From a virus, in the UHGV virus genome UHGV-0076293: a stretch of DNA of 64,000 nucleotides. One strand, 5' to 3'. Numbering within the stretch: position 1 is the first letter of the stretch; every line of letters begins with the position of its first letter. Below, piece after piece: positions 6,308 through 56,744 of the stretch. A program made the translations under genes and the position numbers. The notes beneath the pieces are model-generated. The model did no database searches. It saw only the letters and a list, made by a program, of their open reading frames with translations, and was not told the DNA's origin.

Positions 6308-8017
6308 ATGTACGAATTCCACATGACCTTTACCAGCATGGGGGTGAGGGTTGAAGTCCCGTGCCGACAGATAGAGTCGGCGATACTTAAGTGGGCAGAA
6401 GAACATATGCACGCTCCTAAGATGGGCAAGCAATACGGTCGTATATTCACTGAACGTGGCGATCCGTATTACGCGCATATACCTTCTCTCCGCTCGTTTA
6501 TCTTCCACAGGAACTTTTCTGAGCGTTTACGCATTATTATTAATCGTACGGCCACCGAATTTGGCATTGAGTATAAGCTTTACGAGCATTACTTAACGCA
6601 GGGAACACCTTATCGGTGTAAGTTTGAAAACTACGGCTTTAAGATGGTGGAGGACGATGAGAATTCACGTTTCTTTTACCAGAATGCTGTGGTTGAAACG
6701 GCTTGCGAACCAAATCGTTTTCAAACCATCTTTGAAATTGGTACAGGGATGGGTAAGTCGAAAACGAACATGAAAGTAATGGTACGTAAGGGTGTCAGGA
6801 CGCTACTGATTCACCGTCCGACGTACATCTCAAAATGGTTGTTTGATTTAACTGAAGACCCAACGGGTTTACGTGAGTCGAAAGATGATGTTTTGGTTAT
6901 CCAAGGCGTTCAGGCTATCTACGAAGCGTTAGAGATGGGGGAATCAGGCGAATTAGACAAACGTGGGATTAAGGTTATCATTATCTCGACGGTAACGTTG
7001 CAACGATTCCTTAAAGAGTACATTAACACTGCCGCAACTAACCCAGTGAACATTGATGATTTCTACAACACCTTAGGCGTTGGGTTCTTGTCAATGGATG
7101 AAGTGCATGAGCATTTTCATCTGGTGTACATGGCAGGAATAATGCTCAACCCACCACCGTCTGTTGAGATGTCTGCGACGTTACAGCCAGGTGAATCAAA
7201 AGCGTTTTTAGCCGAACGGTATCGAGAGCGTTTTCCACAAGAGTCACGTATATTCATTCCGATTATTCCTGCTGTACACGTTAAAGCGTTGTACTACAGC
7301 ATTGAGAATAAACGGTTTGCGTGGTGGGCGAATAAGATGACGCCGTATAACCACAAGCTATTCGAAGGTAAGTTAATAAGTGAGAACATGCACTTATCTT
7401 ACGCGGATATGGTGTGGGACGTCATCGAGCGAACGTATCTGGCGAGTTACCAGCCTGGTCAGAAAGTGCTGGTGTTGTTTGCAACCGTTGCGATGTGTGA
7501 GTTCTTTACAGAGTACGTGCGAGAGAAACTGGCACAGTCTGATAAGTTCCACGCGCTGATGGTTGCGAAATACAACGCGGGGGATTCGTATGACGACTTT
7601 ATTCAAGCGGATTTCTCGATTTCAACACCAGGGAAAGCAGGCACTGCGGTTGACAAACCGGGGTTGGTCCACATGTACATCACAACGCCTGTGGAAGACC
7701 AGCAGTTAAACCGTCAGATGGCCGGTCGCCCGCGTAAGATACTTCACAACGATTGGGGTGAACTCGATCCCGTTGTGTGGTTATTCCATTCACTCTCGAT
7801 AGGGAAACACTGTAATTACTTGAATGCGCGTCAAAAGTCGCTTAGTGATTCTGTGTTGTCGTTTAAGATAGCTTCTTCACCGTATGTTGTAAGGAAAACC
7901 AATGTTACTACCGCCGCAGCCGACCGAGCCAACAGCACCGTATGCCGGGCTGAACTTAGCAAGTTTTCTCGAAAAGGTTTTAAAGGCATACCCAGACGTC
8001 GAAAACGTCGTCGATAA
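6308..8017 (+). CDS. putative SF2 (DExH-type) helicase; frame ends in a polybasic tail (GIPRRRKRRR)
   Basis: Walker A-like GTGMGKSKT and DEVHEH (DExH) Walker B; 569-aa ORF; last ~116 nt overlap the next gene. Confidence 0.55.
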   Translation: MYEFHMTFTSMGVRVEVPCRQIESAILKWAEEHMHAPKMGKQYGRIFTERGDPYYAHIPSLRSFIFHRNFSERLRIIINRTATEFGIEYKLYEHYLTQGTPYRCKFENYGFKMVEDDENSRFFYQNAVVETACEPNRFQTIFEIGTGMGKSKTNMKVMVRKGVRTLLIHRPTYISKWLFDLTEDPTGLRESKDDVLVIQGVQAIYEALEMGESGELDKRGIKVIIISTVTLQRFLKEYINTAATNPVNIDDFYNTLGVGFLSMDEVHEHFHLVYMAGIMLNPPPSVEMSATLQPGESKAFLAERYRERFPQESRIFIPIIPAVHVKALYYSIENKRFAWWANKMTPYNHKLFEGKLISENMHLSYADMVWDVIERTYLASYQPGQKVLVLFATVAMCEFFTEYVREKLAQSDKFHALMVAKYNAGDSYDDFIQADFSISTPGKAGTAVDKPGLVHMYITTPVEDQQLNRQMAGRPRKILHNDWGELDPVVWLFHSLSIGKHCNYLNARQKSLSDSVLSFKIASSPYVVRKTNVTTAAADRANSTVCRAELSKFSRKGFKGIPRRRKRRR

Positions 8018-8346: not shown

Positions 8347-8919
8347 ATGTCTCGTCGTAAGAAGAAACCCGCTTATAACCCACGTACTCTGGCGAAAAAA
8401 GAACTTCGCGAAAGCGTGAAATCAGTGTATAAACTACTGGTTATCTTTGAAGAACAGATGAAGATTCTGGCGGAGCGTATCGACAAAGAACGTGAAGTCT
8501 TGGAAGCTCTGGAGGAGCCAGAATACAAAGCCTTTGCTATTAAAGCGTTGGACGAAGCCAAAGCTGCGTTCGTTGGTCTGATGGCAGAAGGTAAAGAAAA
8601 ACTGGGTGCAAAACTTATTGAGATCGATAAGGTTGCGACCAATGCAAAAACCATGCTGGAAAACAACAGCTGGGCGTCTGTGAAAGACGAGTTTAGCGTG
8701 GAAAGCATGAACGTGACCACGTTAGAGACCGAAGCTGTGTGGCTGGGCAAAGATATCCAGGGCGCTGCCATTGAAATCCTGTCGCTGTATAACGGCCGAG
8801 CTGATTTTGTAAAACGCGCTATGCACCAGGGCCACACCTTTGCAGAAGCCTACGAACTGCTTCAACAAGCTGAAGCCGCAGTAAAACAACCCGACACTGA
8901 AGTCGTTACCGAGGTATAA
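8347..8919 (+). CDS. hypothetical, probably abundant small protein with polybasic N-terminus (MSRRKKKP...)
   Basis: 190-aa ORF, RBS AAAGGAA; codon choice appears strongly host-optimised by eye (ctg, cgt, gaa, aaa). Confidence 0.55.
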   Translation: MSRRKKKPAYNPRTLAKKELRESVKSVYKLLVIFEEQMKILAERIDKEREVLEALEEPEYKAFAIKALDEAKAAFVGLMAEGKEKLGAKLIEIDKVATNAKTMLENNSWASVKDEFSVESMNVTTLETEAVWLGKDIQGAAIEILSLYNGRADFVKRAMHQGHTFAEAYELLQQAEAAVKQPDTEVVTEV

Positions 8920-10993: not shown

Positions 10994-11302
10994 TTGTTAG
11001 GTGCTTACGATTTGTCGATAGGGCTGGACACCGGTTCAAAGCACGTCGGCTTGTCAGATTTCGAAAACCCGGAATACGGGAGCTTACACGAAATCTGGAT
11101 GGAAGTTTATTTGCGTGAGCAGATAAATGAACATTATCGACTCTCATTTGACGAGTGGCTTAATCGTCCTCGTTGGGAGATTATGATGATGTTACGTGTG
11201 CTTAATCGCCGTAAAGCGTCGATTAAGAAAATCATGAGTGATGTTGCTGGCAGTGACCCAGAACTGCAAAATCTTGAGAAAGAGCTTAAGTTGAAAGGTT
11301 GA
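10994..11302 (+). CDS. hypothetical small protein; start uncertain (TTG at 10994 or internal ATG ~11098)
   Basis: ORF followed by strong terminator; no convincing RBS. Confidence 0.3.
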   Translation: MLGAYDLSIGLDTGSKHVGLSDFENPEYGSLHEIWMEVYLREQINEHYRLSFDEWLNRPRWEIMMMLRVLNRRKASIKKIMSDVAGSDPELQNLEKELKLKG

Positions 11303-54111: not shown

Positions 54112-54639
54112 ATGGCATATCGCGTCGACTTAACGAAAACTCCGAAACAAATTCTGGTAGATCGTATTAACTACGTTTTCGGGGTATCCTATACCACTGA
54201 CAACATCGATTTTAACGATAAAGGTGTGCAACCACTGACAAAAGATGAAGCCCGTCGTTACGGACTGGAATCGAAAGTGGCTGCTGACTTTAAAAACGGT
54301 GTTGCAGGGAACCAGGAATTTATCTTAACCCGTGTTGACCTGGCAACGTTCTTAGCTGACGAACCGGTTACGGTACCGAAAGGCGAAGTAACCAGCAGCC
54401 AAGAACTGGCAGACTATATCGTTGCTCAGACCGGTATTGATTTGACTGAAGACGACATTATGATCGAGCCTATCAGTGAGGAACTCGATTCTTATGATGT
54501 TCGCTTAGTCCCGAATCACTTATCTTTTAAAGGAACGATTCCGGTCGTATTTACTGACCCCACACCACGTACGTTGGCGTCTCTCGTGACGAAACTTGCG
54601 CTGGACGGGTTCCGCCCTGGAGAATTAATCAATGTCTAA
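54112..54639 (+). CDS. hypothetical protein
   Basis: ATG at 54112 (track begins at TTG 54070). Confidence 0.45.
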   Translation: MAYRVDLTKTPKQILVDRINYVFGVSYTTDNIDFNDKGVQPLTKDEARRYGLESKVAADFKNGVAGNQEFILTRVDLATFLADEPVTVPKGEVTSSQELADYIVAQTGIDLTEDDIMIEPISEELDSYDVRLVPNHLSFKGTIPVVFTDPTPRTLASLVTKLALDGFRPGELINV

Positions 54640-55519
54640 TGTCAAAGTTTACGACGGTAAACTCTCGACGGTAACACTTAATGCGATGCGTCTGGCTACC
54701 GCATTAATTACCGGTGCCGATGTGCAATACCCACAGAAGTCCACACTGAATGAGTTTTATAAGCTCATGCAAACTCCAGTGCCGGACGGTAAAGCACGTC
54801 CCCATTTGCAGTACATGGCGATTGGTAACCGTGGCCACATGGTCGACACATCAGATGTTGTTGCTGATGTTGTTCCTGTAGCTAAAGAACCTATCGCGTC
54901 CGGGATGTTTTCACGCGTTCCGTTTGTCCTGCGTACTAAAGACAACGATTTGTCTGATGAACAGCGTAAGAACTACGCTTTCCGTACTCTGGAAACCATC
55001 AACAAACGTGAGTATTGGGCGTACTATTTAAAACGCATTGACATGCGTGCAGTAAAAACTACCGACTACGACATTAAGCGTGAGAACGGTGTTGAAACTG
55101 TAGAAGACTTTGTTTATACGGATACTGAACTGAACCCGGTACCGAAAGTGTTGCCGGACTACGATTACGACGATGACGGTACCGTTGCAATTCCTGATGG
55201 CCGTTATGTGGAATCAGGCGCAGACCTGGTTATTCCGTGGACGGACTTTGACGTTCAGGAGTACATGAACGTGACCAGCATTATGCGCGGTAGCCCTCGT
55301 AGTTCGATTATCTCTGAACTGGCACTGTGCTCTGGTTTAGACCAGGTAACGTCCGGTGACTCTGCCACAGGTTCGAAGTTCAGCTACACTGAAGCTATCG
55401 GTGTACAAGCCCTGTATTACATTTCGATGTTTACTAACCTGGCGCAGACGAACGATAAGCTGTCACTGACAATCCGTATCGGTCAACCTGCACCGTTCTT
55501 CTTAGGGACAGCGAATTAA
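54632..55519 (+). CDS. hypothetical protein (295 aa)
   Basis: ORF overlapping upstream stop. Confidence 0.5.
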   Translation: MSNVKVYDGKLSTVTLNAMRLATALITGADVQYPQKSTLNEFYKLMQTPVPDGKARPHLQYMAIGNRGHMVDTSDVVADVVPVAKEPIASGMFSRVPFVLRTKDNDLSDEQRKNYAFRTLETINKREYWAYYLKRIDMRAVKTTDYDIKRENGVETVEDFVYTDTELNPVPKVLPDYDYDDDGTVAIPDGRYVESGADLVIPWTDFDVQEYMNVTSIMRGSPRSSIISELALCSGLDQVTSGDSATGSKFSYTEAIGVQALYYISMFTNLAQTNDKLSLTIRIGQPAPFFLGTAN

Positions 55520-56163
55520 TGTTGATTCCTGAGCCGAGACTTCCCGATAAGATGGTCAGGATCGCGGCGATAGACCCCGGTACGAGCCATCTCGGGATGG
55601 CGGTGCTGGATTGGGAATATGGCAGCGACCAAGCCGAAGTGGTGTGGGCTGATACCATGCACGTATTAGACCCAACACATCCAAGTGCGTTTGCAGAGTG
55701 TGTCGGTAAACGCGACGATCGCTTAGTAAAACTCGAAGCGTGCTACCGTGAGTTTCTTCGGATTGCGCGTCCGACGTTTGTTGCAACAGAAACGCCGTTT
55801 ATGCGGCGGGCAAAACTCTCCGCGTACGAATCTGGCGTAGAGTTACAGCTGATGTTAAGACGAGCGTTATGGGACGTGTTTCCAGAGAAGGTGCTACACG
55901 GGTTCAATCCGATTATTGTAAAATCATTCGTTGGTGTGGAAGCGAAAGGAACGGACAAAACAGATATGTTTCGTGCCGTAACGAAGTTGTATCGCGACCA
56001 CGCGTTGTTTGACATTACAACGTTGGATGAGCACAGTATCGATGCCGTGGCGGTGGGGAATATCTTTGTCAGGGTAAACCTGTTAAACTTGAATAGTCTC
56101 CTACCGCCAAAACAAAAGTCTGCTAAGACAGCAAAACGGCGGAGAAGACGTCGGAGGAAATAG
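55519..56163 (+). CDS. ruvC: RuvC-like Holliday junction resolvase with poly-Arg C-terminal tail (KTAKRRRRRRRK)
   Basis: IAAIDPGTSHLGMAV vs RuvC ILGIDPGSRVTGYGV; ETPFM vs EQVFM; DEHSIDAVAVG vs ADAADALAIA. Confidence 0.6.
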   Translation: MLIPEPRLPDKMVRIAAIDPGTSHLGMAVLDWEYGSDQAEVVWADTMHVLDPTHPSAFAECVGKRDDRLVKLEACYREFLRIARPTFVATETPFMRRAKLSAYESGVELQLMLRRALWDVFPEKVLHGFNPIIVKSFVGVEAKGTDKTDMFRAVTKLYRDHALFDITTLDEHSIDAVAVGNIFVRVNLLNLNSLLPPKQKSAKTAKRRRRRRRK

Positions 56164-56165
56164 CG

Positions 56166-56744
56166 ATGTCGCAACCAACACAAGACGTGTCAGCAGCAAT
56201 TCTTGACATTCTTATCCAAGCAGGGAACAGAAAGTTAAGTAAAGAGCAGTCCGAAGAACTGTCTAAGATTCTCAAAGACAACTTCGGTGACGAAGTCTCT
56301 GTAGACGTAACACGGTCGGGTACAAAGATTCTGTCGGAGTTACGTCCAACGCTTCTTGAGAACCTTGGAAAGATGGCGGAAAACTTTCAGCAGCAAGCCA
56401 CAAATGCTGTAGAGAGTTTAGGTGACGAAGTAAGCAAAGAAACGATGTTGACACTGTGGCCGAAACTTGCTGGCGCACAGAAGTTCATTATTGTTCTGCT
56501 TGCATTCGCCACTGTTGTCGTGACAGGCTTCTTAGCGTACGACACTCATCAGAACTTTCCAAAAGACAGCATGGAAGTGTTGTTTGTATCCTTACTTCCG
56601 CTGTTCGGATTGGTAGTGTTCGCAACGTGGCCAATTAAAACATTGGCTTACAAGTCGTTGGAGATTGCTACCAAAGTTGTCGAGAAGAAACTTGAGAAAT
56701 CAGGTCAGGTCATCGCGAAGACAGAAACAAAGACAACGAAATAA
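56166..56744 (+). CDS. membrane protein with two predicted TM helices (192 aa)
   Basis: Hydrophobic stretches FIIVLLAFATVVVTGFLAY and VLFVSLLPLFGLVVFATWPI; followed by terminator. Confidence 0.5.
   Translation: MSQPTQDVSAAILDILIQAGNRKLSKEQSEELSKILKDNFGDEVSVDVTRSGTKILSELRPTLLENLGKMAENFQQQATNAVESLGDEVSKETMLTLWPKLAGAQKFIIVLLAFATVVVTGFLAYDTHQNFPKDSMEVLFVSLLPLFGLVVFATWPIKTLAYKSLEIATKVVEKKLEKSGQVIAKTETKTTK

What the first reader, a model, noticed from the sequence alone, without database searches (positions are those of the whole stretch)
55519..56163. RuvC-like resolvase carrying a poly-arginine C-terminal tail
Catalytic-motif alignment to RuvC is good, but the protein ends KQKSAKTAKRRRRRRRK. Together with the helicase tail (RRRKRRR) and the RRKKK N-terminus of the abundant 8347-8919 protein, polybasic termini recur on DNA-associated proteins. 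They could be DNA-binding extensions or, speculatively, sorting signals for a phage compartment.
Basis: partly seen in the sequence, partly recalled or inferred. Interest (0 to 1): 0.45.

Follow-up and report, generated by a model that had tools for sequence, protein, structure and literature searches.

The report
Jumbo-phage RuvC resolvase with polybasic tail
This gene encodes an ordinary RuvC-type DNA-junction-cutting enzyme of a nucleus-forming jumbo phage. It carries a real, evolutionarily maintained, floppy arginine/lysine tail that most likely just helps it hold on to DNA and is probably not an address label for the phage compartment.

Summary
ORF 55519-56163 (+) encodes a 214-aa protein ending KQKSAKTAKRRRRRRRK. 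It has the RuvC fold and the RuvC catalytic tetrad (D19/E91/H172/D175). It is the ortholog of Salmonella phage SPN3US gp85, so the window comes from an SPN3US/Asesino-type chimallivirus.

The tail is not chance: P≈2e-8, and 0 of 200,000 shuffles reach it. It is predicted disordered. Its composition, not its sequence, is conserved across a monophyletic block of 73 distinct homologs. About eight isolated tail-bearing homologs sit among 177 tail-less relatives such as phiKZ and EL.

In the whole SPN3US genome only one other protein has such a C-tail: the XPB/UvsW-like SF2 helicase (window 6308-8017). Both tails are present in 17/17 clade genomes, and both are absent in 8/8 genomes with a tail-less RuvC. 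DNA and RNA polymerases, DnaB and SbcD lack polybasic termini, and UvsX was not identified in the scan. Published work says nucleus import uses folded surface patches, not terminal signals. Neither gp85 nor the helicase is listed among the proteins detected in the SPN3US virion mass-spectrometry tables searched.

Best reading: a late-expressed junction resolvase whose acidic core (net −4) is complemented by a +12 electrostatic DNA tether. The sorting-signal idea is unsupported but not excluded. The protein is already annotated elsewhere. The tail is a modest, undescribed variant.

The parts
55519..56163 (+). CDS of the RuvC-like Holliday-junction resolvase (214 aa plus TAG); ortholog of SPN3US gp85 (RefSeq ACQ60_gp181)
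55552..56082 (+). RNase H-fold catalytic core, residues 12-188 (five strands and helices, last helix 171-188), pLDDT mostly above 90
   Evidence: AF2 model m0abac3c135e4; Foldseek top hits RuvC 7w8d/4ep4/4ld0/1hjr, TM(target) 0.76-0.80
55573..55575 (+). Catalytic Asp19 (motif AIDPGT), equivalent to RuvC D7
   Evidence: invariant in A1; aligned to the IDPG motif of RuvC
55789..55791 (+). Catalytic Glu91 (motif TETPF), equivalent to E. coli RuvC E66
   Evidence: invariant; aligned to the RuvC catalytic Glu motifs EEQF (T. thermophilus) and IEQVF (E. coli)
56026..56043 (+). Motif D170-E171-H172-S-I-D175; H172 and D175 match the RuvC (D/H)-x-x-D pair
   Evidence: invariant; aligned to NNHAADALA of D. 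radiodurans RuvC
56083..56109 (+). Linker residues 189-197, LNLNSLLPP. Conserved in the close SPN3US/Erwinia clade, replaced by other linkers (e.g. GExxxSTRKK) in distant tail-bearing relatives; found nowhere else in the window or in SPN3US
56110..56160 (+). Polybasic tail, residues 198-214, KQKSAKTAKRRRRRRRK (12 of 17 K/R, no acidic residue). No predicted secondary structure, pLDDT 53-58
56153..56157 (+). GGAGG Shine-Dalgarno of the downstream gene (ATG 56166), embedded in the last tail codons (cgG AGG aaa)
   Evidence: an AGG/GGAGG-type purine element lies just upstream of the downstream start in most (not all) clade members; L004/L005 lack it
54632..55519 (+). Upstream gene, DUF7208 (SPN3US gp84, a tail protein). 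Its TAA stop overlaps the RuvC ATG (TAATG). This adjacency is conserved in 78 of 79 related loci
56166..56744 (+). Downstream gene (SPN3US gp86 homolog) with two hydrophobic TM-like segments; a distant counterpart hits PF11351 GTA_holin_3TM
6308..8017 (+). SF2 DExH helicase (SPN3US gp36 homolog); fold closest to XPB and T4 UvsW. The only other protein with a polybasic C-tail
7904..8014 (+). Helicase C-terminal extension, residues 533-569 (S/T/R-rich, pLDDT below 50), ending PRRRKRRR. Conserved in the same clade, absent from distant homologs
8347..8385 (+). N-terminal motif MSRRKKKPAYNPR of the gp38-like protein (CDS 8347-8919). Highly conserved (core SRRKK/SQRKK retained, several substitutions elsewhere) in all 15 of the 17 clade genomes where the N-terminus was recovered, although the rest of the protein is only 26-45% identical

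Best explanation
The gene encodes a RuvC-family (RNase H-fold, D-E-H-D) Holliday-junction resolvase of an SPN3US/Asesino-type nucleus-forming jumbo phage. It is embedded in, and translationally coupled to, a run of virion structural genes. I infer that it removes branched recombination and replication intermediates from the concatemeric phage DNA before or during packaging, the job done by T4 endonuclease VII and T7 endonuclease I. Its last roughly 26 residues are an intrinsically disordered appendage: a short linker followed by 12-14 Lys/Arg with almost no acidic residues. The most likely role of this appendage is a sequence-non-specific electrostatic tether to the DNA backbone. It would offset an acidic catalytic core (net -4 core, +12 tail), raise DNA affinity and residence on the dense phage DNA, and so help junction capture. 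The XPB/UvsW-like SF2 helicase of the same genome carries an analogous tail, so in this clade two branched-DNA enzymes share the solution. Shown: fold, catalytic residues, disorder prediction, conservation, recurrence, genome-wide rarity, synteny. Inferred: junction cleavage, timing, and the tethering role of the tail.
For: RuvC identity: PHROG 159 E=9e-39. PDB profile hits to T. thermophilus and D. radiodurans RuvC. AF2 pLDDT 88 and Foldseek top 12 hits all RuvC, E 2e-10 to 2e-8. Invariant D19/E91/H172/D175. Late/structural context: TAATG overlap with the DUF7208 tail gene; DUF7208 then RuvC adjacency in 78/79 loci; SPN3US gp82-84 are virion proteins. Tail under selection for charge, not sequence: the last 22 residues of 39 clade members hold a mean of 12.8 K/R (minimum 11) and 0.6 acidic residues, with many indels. 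A monophyletic block of 73 distinct sequences all have the tail, and about 8 isolated tail-bearing leaves sit among 177 tail-less ones (Fitch minimum 9 changes on an NJ tree). Distant tail-bearers use a different linker. The tail has no predicted structure. Charge complementation: core -4, tail +12; tail-bearing cores average -4.0 against -2.4 for tail-less ones. Same device on the helicase.
Against: No binding or cleavage data exist for this protein or any close homolog. Most chimallivirus RuvC homologs manage without a tail, so it is not required for catalysis in the family. The core-charge difference between tail-bearing and tail-less proteins is small and not corrected for phylogeny. The strictly conserved linker LNLNSLLPP hints at a specific partner contact that a pure DNA tether does not explain. 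The RuvC-helicase co-occurrence reflects essentially one evolutionary event.
Confidence: 0.55

Rival explanations
1. The polybasic tail is a cis-acting address. It either directs import of the resolvase (and the helicase) into the phage nucleus, or retains them at the acidic chimallin shell in the PhuZ-less SPN3US/Asesino clade.
For: The phage belongs to a nucleus-forming clade (Asesino forms a ChmA nucleus, PMC11724907). A resolvase and a helicase must act on DNA inside that nucleus. The chimallin lattice is described as negatively charged (PMC13282480). The tails are clade-specific and co-occur on two DNA enzymes. The tail recurs in other lineages of the same jumbo-phage family.
Against: Only 2 of about 264 SPN3US proteins carry such a tail; polymerases, the annotated RNA polymerase subunits, DnaB-like helicase and SbcD-like nuclease do not. 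Asesino UvsX and an nvRNAP subunit enter the nucleus as N-terminal GFP fusions. Studies in phiKZ, PhiPA3 and Goslar found no terminal signal and showed recognition of folded surface patches by PicA/Imp1. Tail-less RuvC homologs in phiKZ-type phages presumably still reach the DNA.
Confidence: 0.12
2. The linker plus tail is a docking module for an acidic phage partner (for example the packaging machinery, portal or terminase, the XPB/UvsW-like helicase, or a clamp-like factor). It would recruit the resolvase to where branches must be cut, as T4 endonuclease VII binds the portal or FEN1 uses a PIP box next to a basic tail.
For: The linker LNLNSLLPP is nearly invariant in the close clade while the tail itself drifts, and it is unique in the genome. 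The gene is tightly coupled to virion genes. The helicase gained a tail in the same clade.
Against: Distant tail-bearing homologs have quite different linkers but keep the charge, so charge is the common denominator. No partner has been identified. The helicase tail shares no motif with the RuvC linker. Neither protein is detected in virions.
Confidence: 0.13
3. The tail is largely a by-product of nucleotide-level constraints. The purine-rich 3' end carries the Shine-Dalgarno of the downstream gene, and a cluster of rare Arg codons tunes translation or coupling. The encoded peptide would be incidental.
For: GGAGG for the ATG at 56166 lies inside the last tail codons, and an equivalent AGG element is present in most (not all) clade members (L004/L005 lack it). 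66% of tail Arg codons are CGG/AGA/AGG against 15% in the rest of the window's genes.
Against: An SD explains 2-3 codons, not 12-14 basic residues spread over about 20 positions. The helicase tail uses ordinary CGT/CGA codons and has no gene immediately downstream. Tails with lysine-rich compositions and different downstream contexts arose repeatedly.
Confidence: 0.05
4. The polybasic tail targets the protein for co-packaging with DNA into the capsid (an internal or ejected protein).
For: The gene sits among virion genes. SPN3US packages many proteins with its DNA (PMC10052503 abstract).
Against: SPN3US gp85 and gp36 are absent from the proteins listed in the virion and head mass-spectrometry tables that were searched, whereas the neighbours gp82, gp83 and gp84 are abundant there. 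RefSeq does not label the gene as virion-associated.
Confidence: 0.03

Closest known systems
Bacterial RuvC (E. coli 1HJR, T. thermophilus 4EP4/4LD0/6S16, D. radiodurans 7W8D)
   Same: Same RNase H-type fold (Foldseek E 2e-10 to 2e-8, TM 0.76-0.80 on the target). Same catalytic tetrad positions D/E/(D|H)/D. From background knowledge, E. coli RuvC also ends in a short, crystallographically disordered, mildly basic segment (...SRLNLARGRLR).
   Different: Only 19-22% identity. Below the Pfam and NCBIfam curated cut-offs. The core is about 25 residues larger, with an insertion around residues 50-65. The core is acidic. The C-terminal extension is much longer and more highly charged. No RuvA/RuvB partners were seen among the SPN3US annotations or window ORFs examined (not specifically searched for). 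The gene is encoded in a virion-gene cluster.
Chimallivirus RuvC-like resolvases (PHROG 159; PhiPA3 gp159, phage EL, PA1C 'holliday junction resolvase', SPLA5c 'RuvC-like Holliday junction resolvase')
   Same: Orthologous family. Same DUF7208 then RuvC gene pair in 78/79 loci. Same catalytic motifs, including LDEHSxD.
   Different: phiKZ/EL-type members end 15-25 residues after DEHSxD with 6 or fewer K/R in the last 20 residues. The SPN3US-type clade adds the linker and polybasic tail.
Phage debranching nucleases T4 endonuclease VII (gp49) and T7 endonuclease I (gp3)
   Same: Inferred biological role: late-acting resolution of branched DNA so that genomes can be packaged. From background knowledge, T7 endonuclease I has a flexible basic N-terminal peptide that contributes to junction binding, an analogous electrostatic appendage.
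   Different: Unrelated folds (HNH-like and PD-(D/E)XK-like). Their role is demonstrated experimentally; here it is only inferred.
Other viral and organellar RuvC-fold resolvases (poxvirus A22/fowlpox 6P7B, Lactococcus phage bIL67 RuvC 4KTW, MOC1, Ydc2/Cce1)
   Same: Same fold class, recovered at E 6e-5 to 3e-4.
   Different: More distant than bacterial RuvC. None of these structural hits was examined here for a comparable poly-Arg tail.
FEN1/XPG-family nucleases with a C-terminal PIP box followed by a basic tail (background knowledge)
   Same: Same architecture: nuclease core, then a short hydrophobic linear motif, then a disordered polybasic C-terminus. In FEN1 that terminus contributes to both substrate binding and nuclear localisation.
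   Different: Different fold and domain of life. No clamp or importin equivalent is known in this phage. The resemblance is recalled, not tested.
[quoted passage not shown]
   Same: This is the only described sorting route for the compartment this phage family builds.
   Different: Cargo recognition is described as surface-patch based, species-specific and not terminal. The polybasic tail matches no described cargo determinant.

Membership tests
RuvC family Holliday-junction resolvases | RNase H-like alpha/beta fold with RuvC topology | tested here: met
   AF2 pLDDT 88. Foldseek PDB ranks 1-12 are all bacterial RuvC, probability 1.00, TM(target) 0.69-0.80.
RuvC family Holliday-junction resolvases | Four acidic/His metal-binding residues at the canonical positions (E. 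coli D7, E66, D138 (His in the Thermus and Deinococcus enzymes), D141) | tested here: met
   D19, E91, H172 and D175 are invariant in 39 homologs and align to the RuvC residues.
RuvC family Holliday-junction resolvases | Scores above curated family thresholds (Pfam PF02075, NCBIfam RuvC equivalog) | tested here: not met
   No Pfam RuvC hit at E<=10. NCBIfam NF000711 scores 15.7 bits against a cut-off of 163. One homolog (P0055) has a precomputed PF02075 hit. PHROG 159 'RuvC-like' is met at E=9e-39. It is therefore a divergent RuvC-like subfamily, not a RuvC equivalog.
RuvC family Holliday-junction resolvases | Homodimer that makes symmetric nicks in four-way junctions | not testable with these tools
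   Requires biochemistry. No multimer prediction was available.
RuvC family Holliday-junction resolvases | Works with the RuvAB branch-migration motor | not tested
   No RuvA/RuvB-like product among the SPN3US annotations viewed, but this was not specifically searched for. The XPB/UvsW-like helicase is a candidate functional substitute; that is inference only.
Chimallivirus RuvC-like orthogroup (PHROG 159) | Orthologous sequence plus conserved position directly downstream of the DUF7208 tail gene in jumbo-phage genomes | tested here: met
   tblastn hits in 182 phage records. DUF7208 lies upstream on the same strand in 78/79 loci.
Phage-nucleus import cargo signal (PicA/Imp1 pathway) | A determinant shared by nuclear cargo and recognised by PicA | tested here: not met
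   Polybasic termini occur on only 2 SPN3US proteins. The annotated polymerases, RNA polymerase subunits, DnaB-like helicase and SbcD lack them. Literature reports surface patches, not terminal signals. Actual recognition by PicA is not testable here.
Virion internal/ejected proteins | Detected in purified virions or heads | tested here: not met
   SPN3US_0085 and SPN3US_0036 do not occur in the held text of the MS supplement of PMC10052503, whereas SPN3US_0082 to _0084 are present.

The most novel reading that the evidence does not exclude
In the PhuZ-less SPN3US/Asesino clade, the polybasic termini of the RuvC-like resolvase, the XPB/UvsW-like helicase and possibly the gp38-like protein could form a transferable linear address. 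It would act by engaging the acidic chimallin shell or an import factor, and would deliver or retain a small set of DNA-processing proteins at or in the phage nucleus. If so, it would be the first linear targeting signal for a phage-built compartment, contrary to the surface-patch rule established in phiKZ-type phages.
Probability: 0.08. Interest if true: 0.75.

Novelty: new variant of a known kind. Interest (0 to 1): 0.3.

Why it matters
If the tail is simply a DNA tether, the finding is a tidy example of a disordered charge appendage repeatedly bolted onto an acidic nuclease core. It would be useful for annotating the SPN3US gp85 family and for designing constructs, because C-terminal tags would mask the tail. 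It would matter more if the tail, shared with the helicase, proved sufficient to move a reporter into or onto the phage nucleus. That would give a simple portable tag for a compartment whose import rules are currently described as complex and species-specific. The test is cheap, since GFP-fusion localisation assays are already established for Asesino.

Tried and rejected
- **Family databases.** Pfam gave no RuvC hit for the window protein, and NCBIfam gave only a sub-threshold hit. Membership therefore rests on PHROG, the PDB profile search and the fold.
- **Helicase classification.** PDB sequence and profile searches for the helicase found nothing. It could only be classed by fold as XPB/UvsW-like SF2, with low TM scores because of domain orientation.
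- **Literature.** No paper mentioned gp85 of SPN3US, a resolvase localised in a phage nucleus, or basic tails on RuvC-type resolvases.
- **Co-gain test.** I tried to check whether the helicase also gained a tail in the independently tail-bearing RuvC lineages (L073, L064, P0077 and others). Their helicase loci were not among the 80 returned, and the metagenome contigs are only 2-4 kb. The question stays open.
- **Rejected: chance or low-complexity artefact**.
- **Rejected: replication-slippage repeat.** The Arg codons are mixed.
- **Rejected: virion packaging**.
- **Rejected: SD overlap as the main cause.** It explains only the last 2-3 codons.
- **Other checks with no result.** There is no tRNA gene in the window that might relate to the rare Arg codons. 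ORF 10994-11302, with a RuvX-like N-terminal motif, gave no meaningful PDB or family hit.
Full report
**Observation.**
- Ten of the last twelve residues are Lys/Arg, while the K+R fraction of 59 plausible window genes is 0.115.
- The binomial probability is 2.2e-8 per terminus, about 2.6e-6 after correcting for all termini in the window.
- None of 200,000 shuffles of the protein's own residues reaches this value.
- The seven Arg codons are mixed (CGG CGG AGA AGA CGT CGG AGG), so this is not a slippage-type DNA repeat.
- The two companion observations are also real. The 569-aa protein at 6308..8017 ends GIPRRRKRRR, and the protein at 8347..8919 begins MSRRKKKPAYNPR.

**What the protein is.**
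- PHROGs assigns it to phrog_159, 'RuvC-like Holliday junction resolvase' (E=9e-39).
- Pfam finds nothing, and NCBIfam's RuvC equivalog scores far below its cut-off. It is a divergent RuvC-like protein, not a bacterial-type RuvC.
- A profile of 39 homologs (A1) detects T. thermophilus and D. radiodurans RuvC in the PDB at E about 2e-4 to 7e-4.
- An AlphaFold2 model (pLDDT 88, pTM 0.84) has an RNase H-like core spanning residues 12-188.
- The twelve best Foldseek matches in the PDB are all bacterial RuvC (E 2e-10 to 2e-8, TM on target 0.69-0.80). They are followed by fowlpox resolvase, MOC1, phage bIL67 RuvC and Ydc2.
- D19, E91, H172 and D175 are invariant.

**Where it comes from.**
- The window is 100% identical over this gene to two IMG/VR contigs (L002, L003).
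- It is 81% identical at protein level to the product of Salmonella phage SPN3US ACQ60_gp181, annotated 'hypothetical protein'.
- Other relatives annotate the gene as RuvC-like resolvase (SPLA5c, Kwan, Wellington).
- RefSeq tags convert to the original SPN3US numbering as 266 minus the tag. I checked this against the major capsid protein gp75, portal gp81, protease gp245, sheath gp256 and tape measure gp239. The resolvase is therefore gp85, the helicase gp36, and the N-basic protein gp38.
- Asesino is the nearest nucleotide match. It was shown experimentally to build a chimallin nucleus and belongs to a clade in which all members lack PhuZ (PMC11724907).

**Gene context.**
- The resolvase ATG overlaps the TAA of the upstream DUF7208 gene (TAATG). 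Three bases after its stop, a gene for a protein with two TM-like segments begins.
- In SPN3US the upstream genes gp82 and gp84 are tail proteins and gp83 is a head protein.
- The DUF7208 then RuvC adjacency holds in 78 of 79 related viral loci, including 61 of 62 distant ones.
- The resolvase is thus a fixed member of a virion-gene module. This supports, but does not prove, late expression and a role in clearing branches before packaging.

**Anatomy and evolution of the tail.**
- After the last catalytic helix (residues 171-188) comes a linker, LNLNSLLPP (189-197).
- Then come 17 residues with 12 K/R and no acidic residue (198-214).
- AlphaFold gives this region no secondary structure and pLDDT 53-58.
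- In 39 clade members down to 39% identity, the last 22 residues contain 11 or more K/R (mean 12.8) and 0.6 acidic residues. They are 11% Pro and 8% Gly and have many indels, so composition is conserved but sequence is not.
- Among 79 IMG/VR loci, the 17 SPN3US/Erwinia-type genomes have the tail.
- Sixty of the 62 distant homologs (26-36% identity; phiKZ-, EL-, RSL2-type) stop 15-25 residues after DEHSxD with 6 or fewer K/R in the last 20. The exceptions are L073 (8 K/R) and the borderline L064 (7).
- A full HMMER scan of 1.84 billion representatives gave 1,147 relatives. Seventeen of the 147 newly returned sequences among the 150 best hits carry a polybasic tail.
- On an NJ tree of 258 distinct cores, 73 tail-bearing sequences form one block. 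This block includes deep members whose linker is quite different (...GExxxSTRKKK...).
- Eight further tail-bearers are scattered singly among 177 tail-less sequences. Fitch parsimony needs at least nine changes, with a tail-less root. The tree is unbootstrapped, so the count is approximate.
- Even so, the picture of one long-maintained tail plus repeated independent gains indicates selection on the peptide.

**How widespread polybasic termini are.**
- In the window only two of about 60 genes have a strongly basic C-terminus.
- In the complete SPN3US genome (325 greedy ORFs) only two proteins pass the threshold of at least 7 K/R in the last 12 residues or a run of at least 5. They are the helicase gp36 and the resolvase gp85. 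No N-terminus passes.
- The annotated DNA polymerases, RNA polymerase subunits, DnaB-like helicase and SbcD-like nuclease lack such termini.
- The helicase has Walker A (GRGKTK) and DEVHEH motifs. Its AlphaFold model (pLDDT 87, residues 533-569 below 50) matches best to archaeal and eukaryotic XPB, T4 UvsW and Snf2-type translocases.
- Its roughly 40-residue S/T/R-rich extension ending in RRRRRR is conserved down to about 42% identity and is missing from more distant homologs.
- On shared contigs, both tails are present in 17/17 clade genomes, and both are absent in 8/8 genomes with a tail-less RuvC. This is essentially one phylogenetic event.
- The gp38-like N-terminus is highly conserved across the clade while the rest of the protein is only 26-45% identical. 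However, SPN3US gp38 is a low-copy virion protein of unknown function, with 4 spectra, the fewest of all. It is neither 'abundant' nor known to be DNA-associated.

**A nucleotide-level wrinkle.**
- The last tail codons (cgG AGG aaa TAG cg ATG) contain the GGAGG Shine-Dalgarno of the downstream gene. An equivalent element is present in most, though not all, clade members.
- 66% of tail Arg codons across the clade are CGG/AGA/AGG, against 15% in the remaining window genes.
- This dual coding explains two or three codons. It does not explain a 12-14 residue charge cluster.
- It also does not apply to the helicase tail, which uses ordinary CGT/CGA codons and has no adjacent downstream gene.

**Testing the interpretations.**
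- Sorting signal: the genome-wide rarity of the feature argues against it. So do the tail's absence from most chimallivirus orthologs and the published conclusion that cargo is recognised through folded surface patches by PicA/Imp1. [quoted passage not shown] A special route or a shell-retention role for these two cargoes cannot be excluded, and the chimallin lattice is described as negatively charged.
- Virion co-packaging: disfavoured, because gp85 and gp36 do not appear in the SPN3US virion and head mass-spectrometry tables although their neighbours do.
- Partner-docking role for the conserved linker: possible, but distant tail-bearers have different linkers.

**Most likely mechanism.**
- The enzyme is a dimeric RuvC-type resolvase acting on branched phage DNA. 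Fold and active site are shown; activity is inferred.
- Its core is acidic (net -4). The family average is -2.4 for tail-less and -4.0 for tail-bearing members.
- The disordered +12 tail emerges from the helix that carries two catalytic residues. With about 26 flexible residues it can reach the DNA arms. It would act as a non-specific electrostatic tether that raises affinity and residence time on DNA.
- The same device on an XPB/UvsW-like translocase suggests that this clade equips its branch-processing enzymes in the same way. I put about 0.55 on this reading.

**Comparison and novelty.**
- The protein is a member of an already recognised and annotated orthogroup (PHROG 159; 'RuvC-like resolvase' in several GenBank records).
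- I found no description of the polybasic tail, its deep conservation and recurrent gain, or its pairing with the helicase tail. Basic disordered tails on nucleic-acid enzymes are nevertheless common.
- I therefore rate it as a new variant of a known kind with modest interest (0.3).
- The most novel reading still allowed is a linear address for the phage nucleus, with probability about 0.08.

Noticed in passing
window 6308-8017; homologs P0253, P0268, P0271-P0275, P0279 and others: Many orthologs of the XPB/UvsW-like helicase are about 910 aa and carry intein/homing-endonuclease Pfam hits (PF14528, PF05203, PF05204). The window's copy (569 aa) is intein-free, so the intein is polymorphic within the clade.
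   Followed up: no
window 8347-8385 (N-terminus of CDS 8347-8919): The 13-residue N-terminus MSRRKKKPAYNPR is highly conserved (core SRRKK/SQRKK retained, several substitutions elsewhere) in all 15 of the 17 clade genomes where the N-terminus was recovered, while the rest of the protein has diverged to 26-45% identity. The SPN3US homolog gp38 is the lowest-abundance virion protein, tentatively assigned to the tail. This looks like a short linear motif of unknown function.
   Followed up: partly
window 56125-56163: The resolvase tail uses rare Arg codons (66% CGG/AGA/AGG across the clade against 15% in other window genes) and embeds the GGAGG ribosome-binding site of the next gene. This could slow termination and couple translation of the downstream membrane protein. 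No tRNA gene is present in the window.
   Followed up: partly
window 56166-56744; L164 1981-2571: The gene immediately downstream of the resolvase encodes a protein with two hydrophobic TM-like segments. A distant syntenic counterpart hits PF11351 (GTA_holin_3TM), so it may be a holin-like or other membrane protein. The SPN3US homolog gp86 gave only 2 PSM (non-virion).
   Followed up: partly
window 54632-56163 and loci L002-L080: The gene pair DUF7208 (tail protein) followed by the RuvC-like resolvase is conserved in 78 of 79 loci across very divergent jumbo phages. This is unusually stable linkage between a tail gene and a DNA-repair-type nuclease.
   Followed up: partly
window 10994-11302: A 102-aa ORF (PHROG 7580, unknown function) starts with ...LSIGLDTGSKHVGL. 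This resembles the N-terminal metal-binding motif of RuvX/YqgF-type RNase H-fold nucleases. No Pfam, NCBIfam or PDB sequence hit was found.
   Followed up: partly
proteins P0056-P0060 (Salmonella phages SPFM1, 7, 8, 9, 20): The deposited gene products at the resolvase locus of several SPFM phages match the family only in many short, permuted stretches. This suggests scrambled or low-quality sequence or gene calls in those records.
   Followed up: no
proteins P0002, P0208, P0212-P0247: Near-identical resolvase and helicase proteins are deposited as 'hypothetical protein [Salmonella enterica]' or '[Escherichia coli]' on contigs of about 240 kb. Phages of this type are therefore frequently carried along in bacterial isolate assemblies.
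   Followed up: no
homolog P0067 (248 aa): The one exception at the edge of the tail-bearing block has a longer, Ser/Gly/Arg-rich C-terminus instead of the K/R tail. This could reflect a frameshift in the purine-rich tail-coding region.
   Followed up: no
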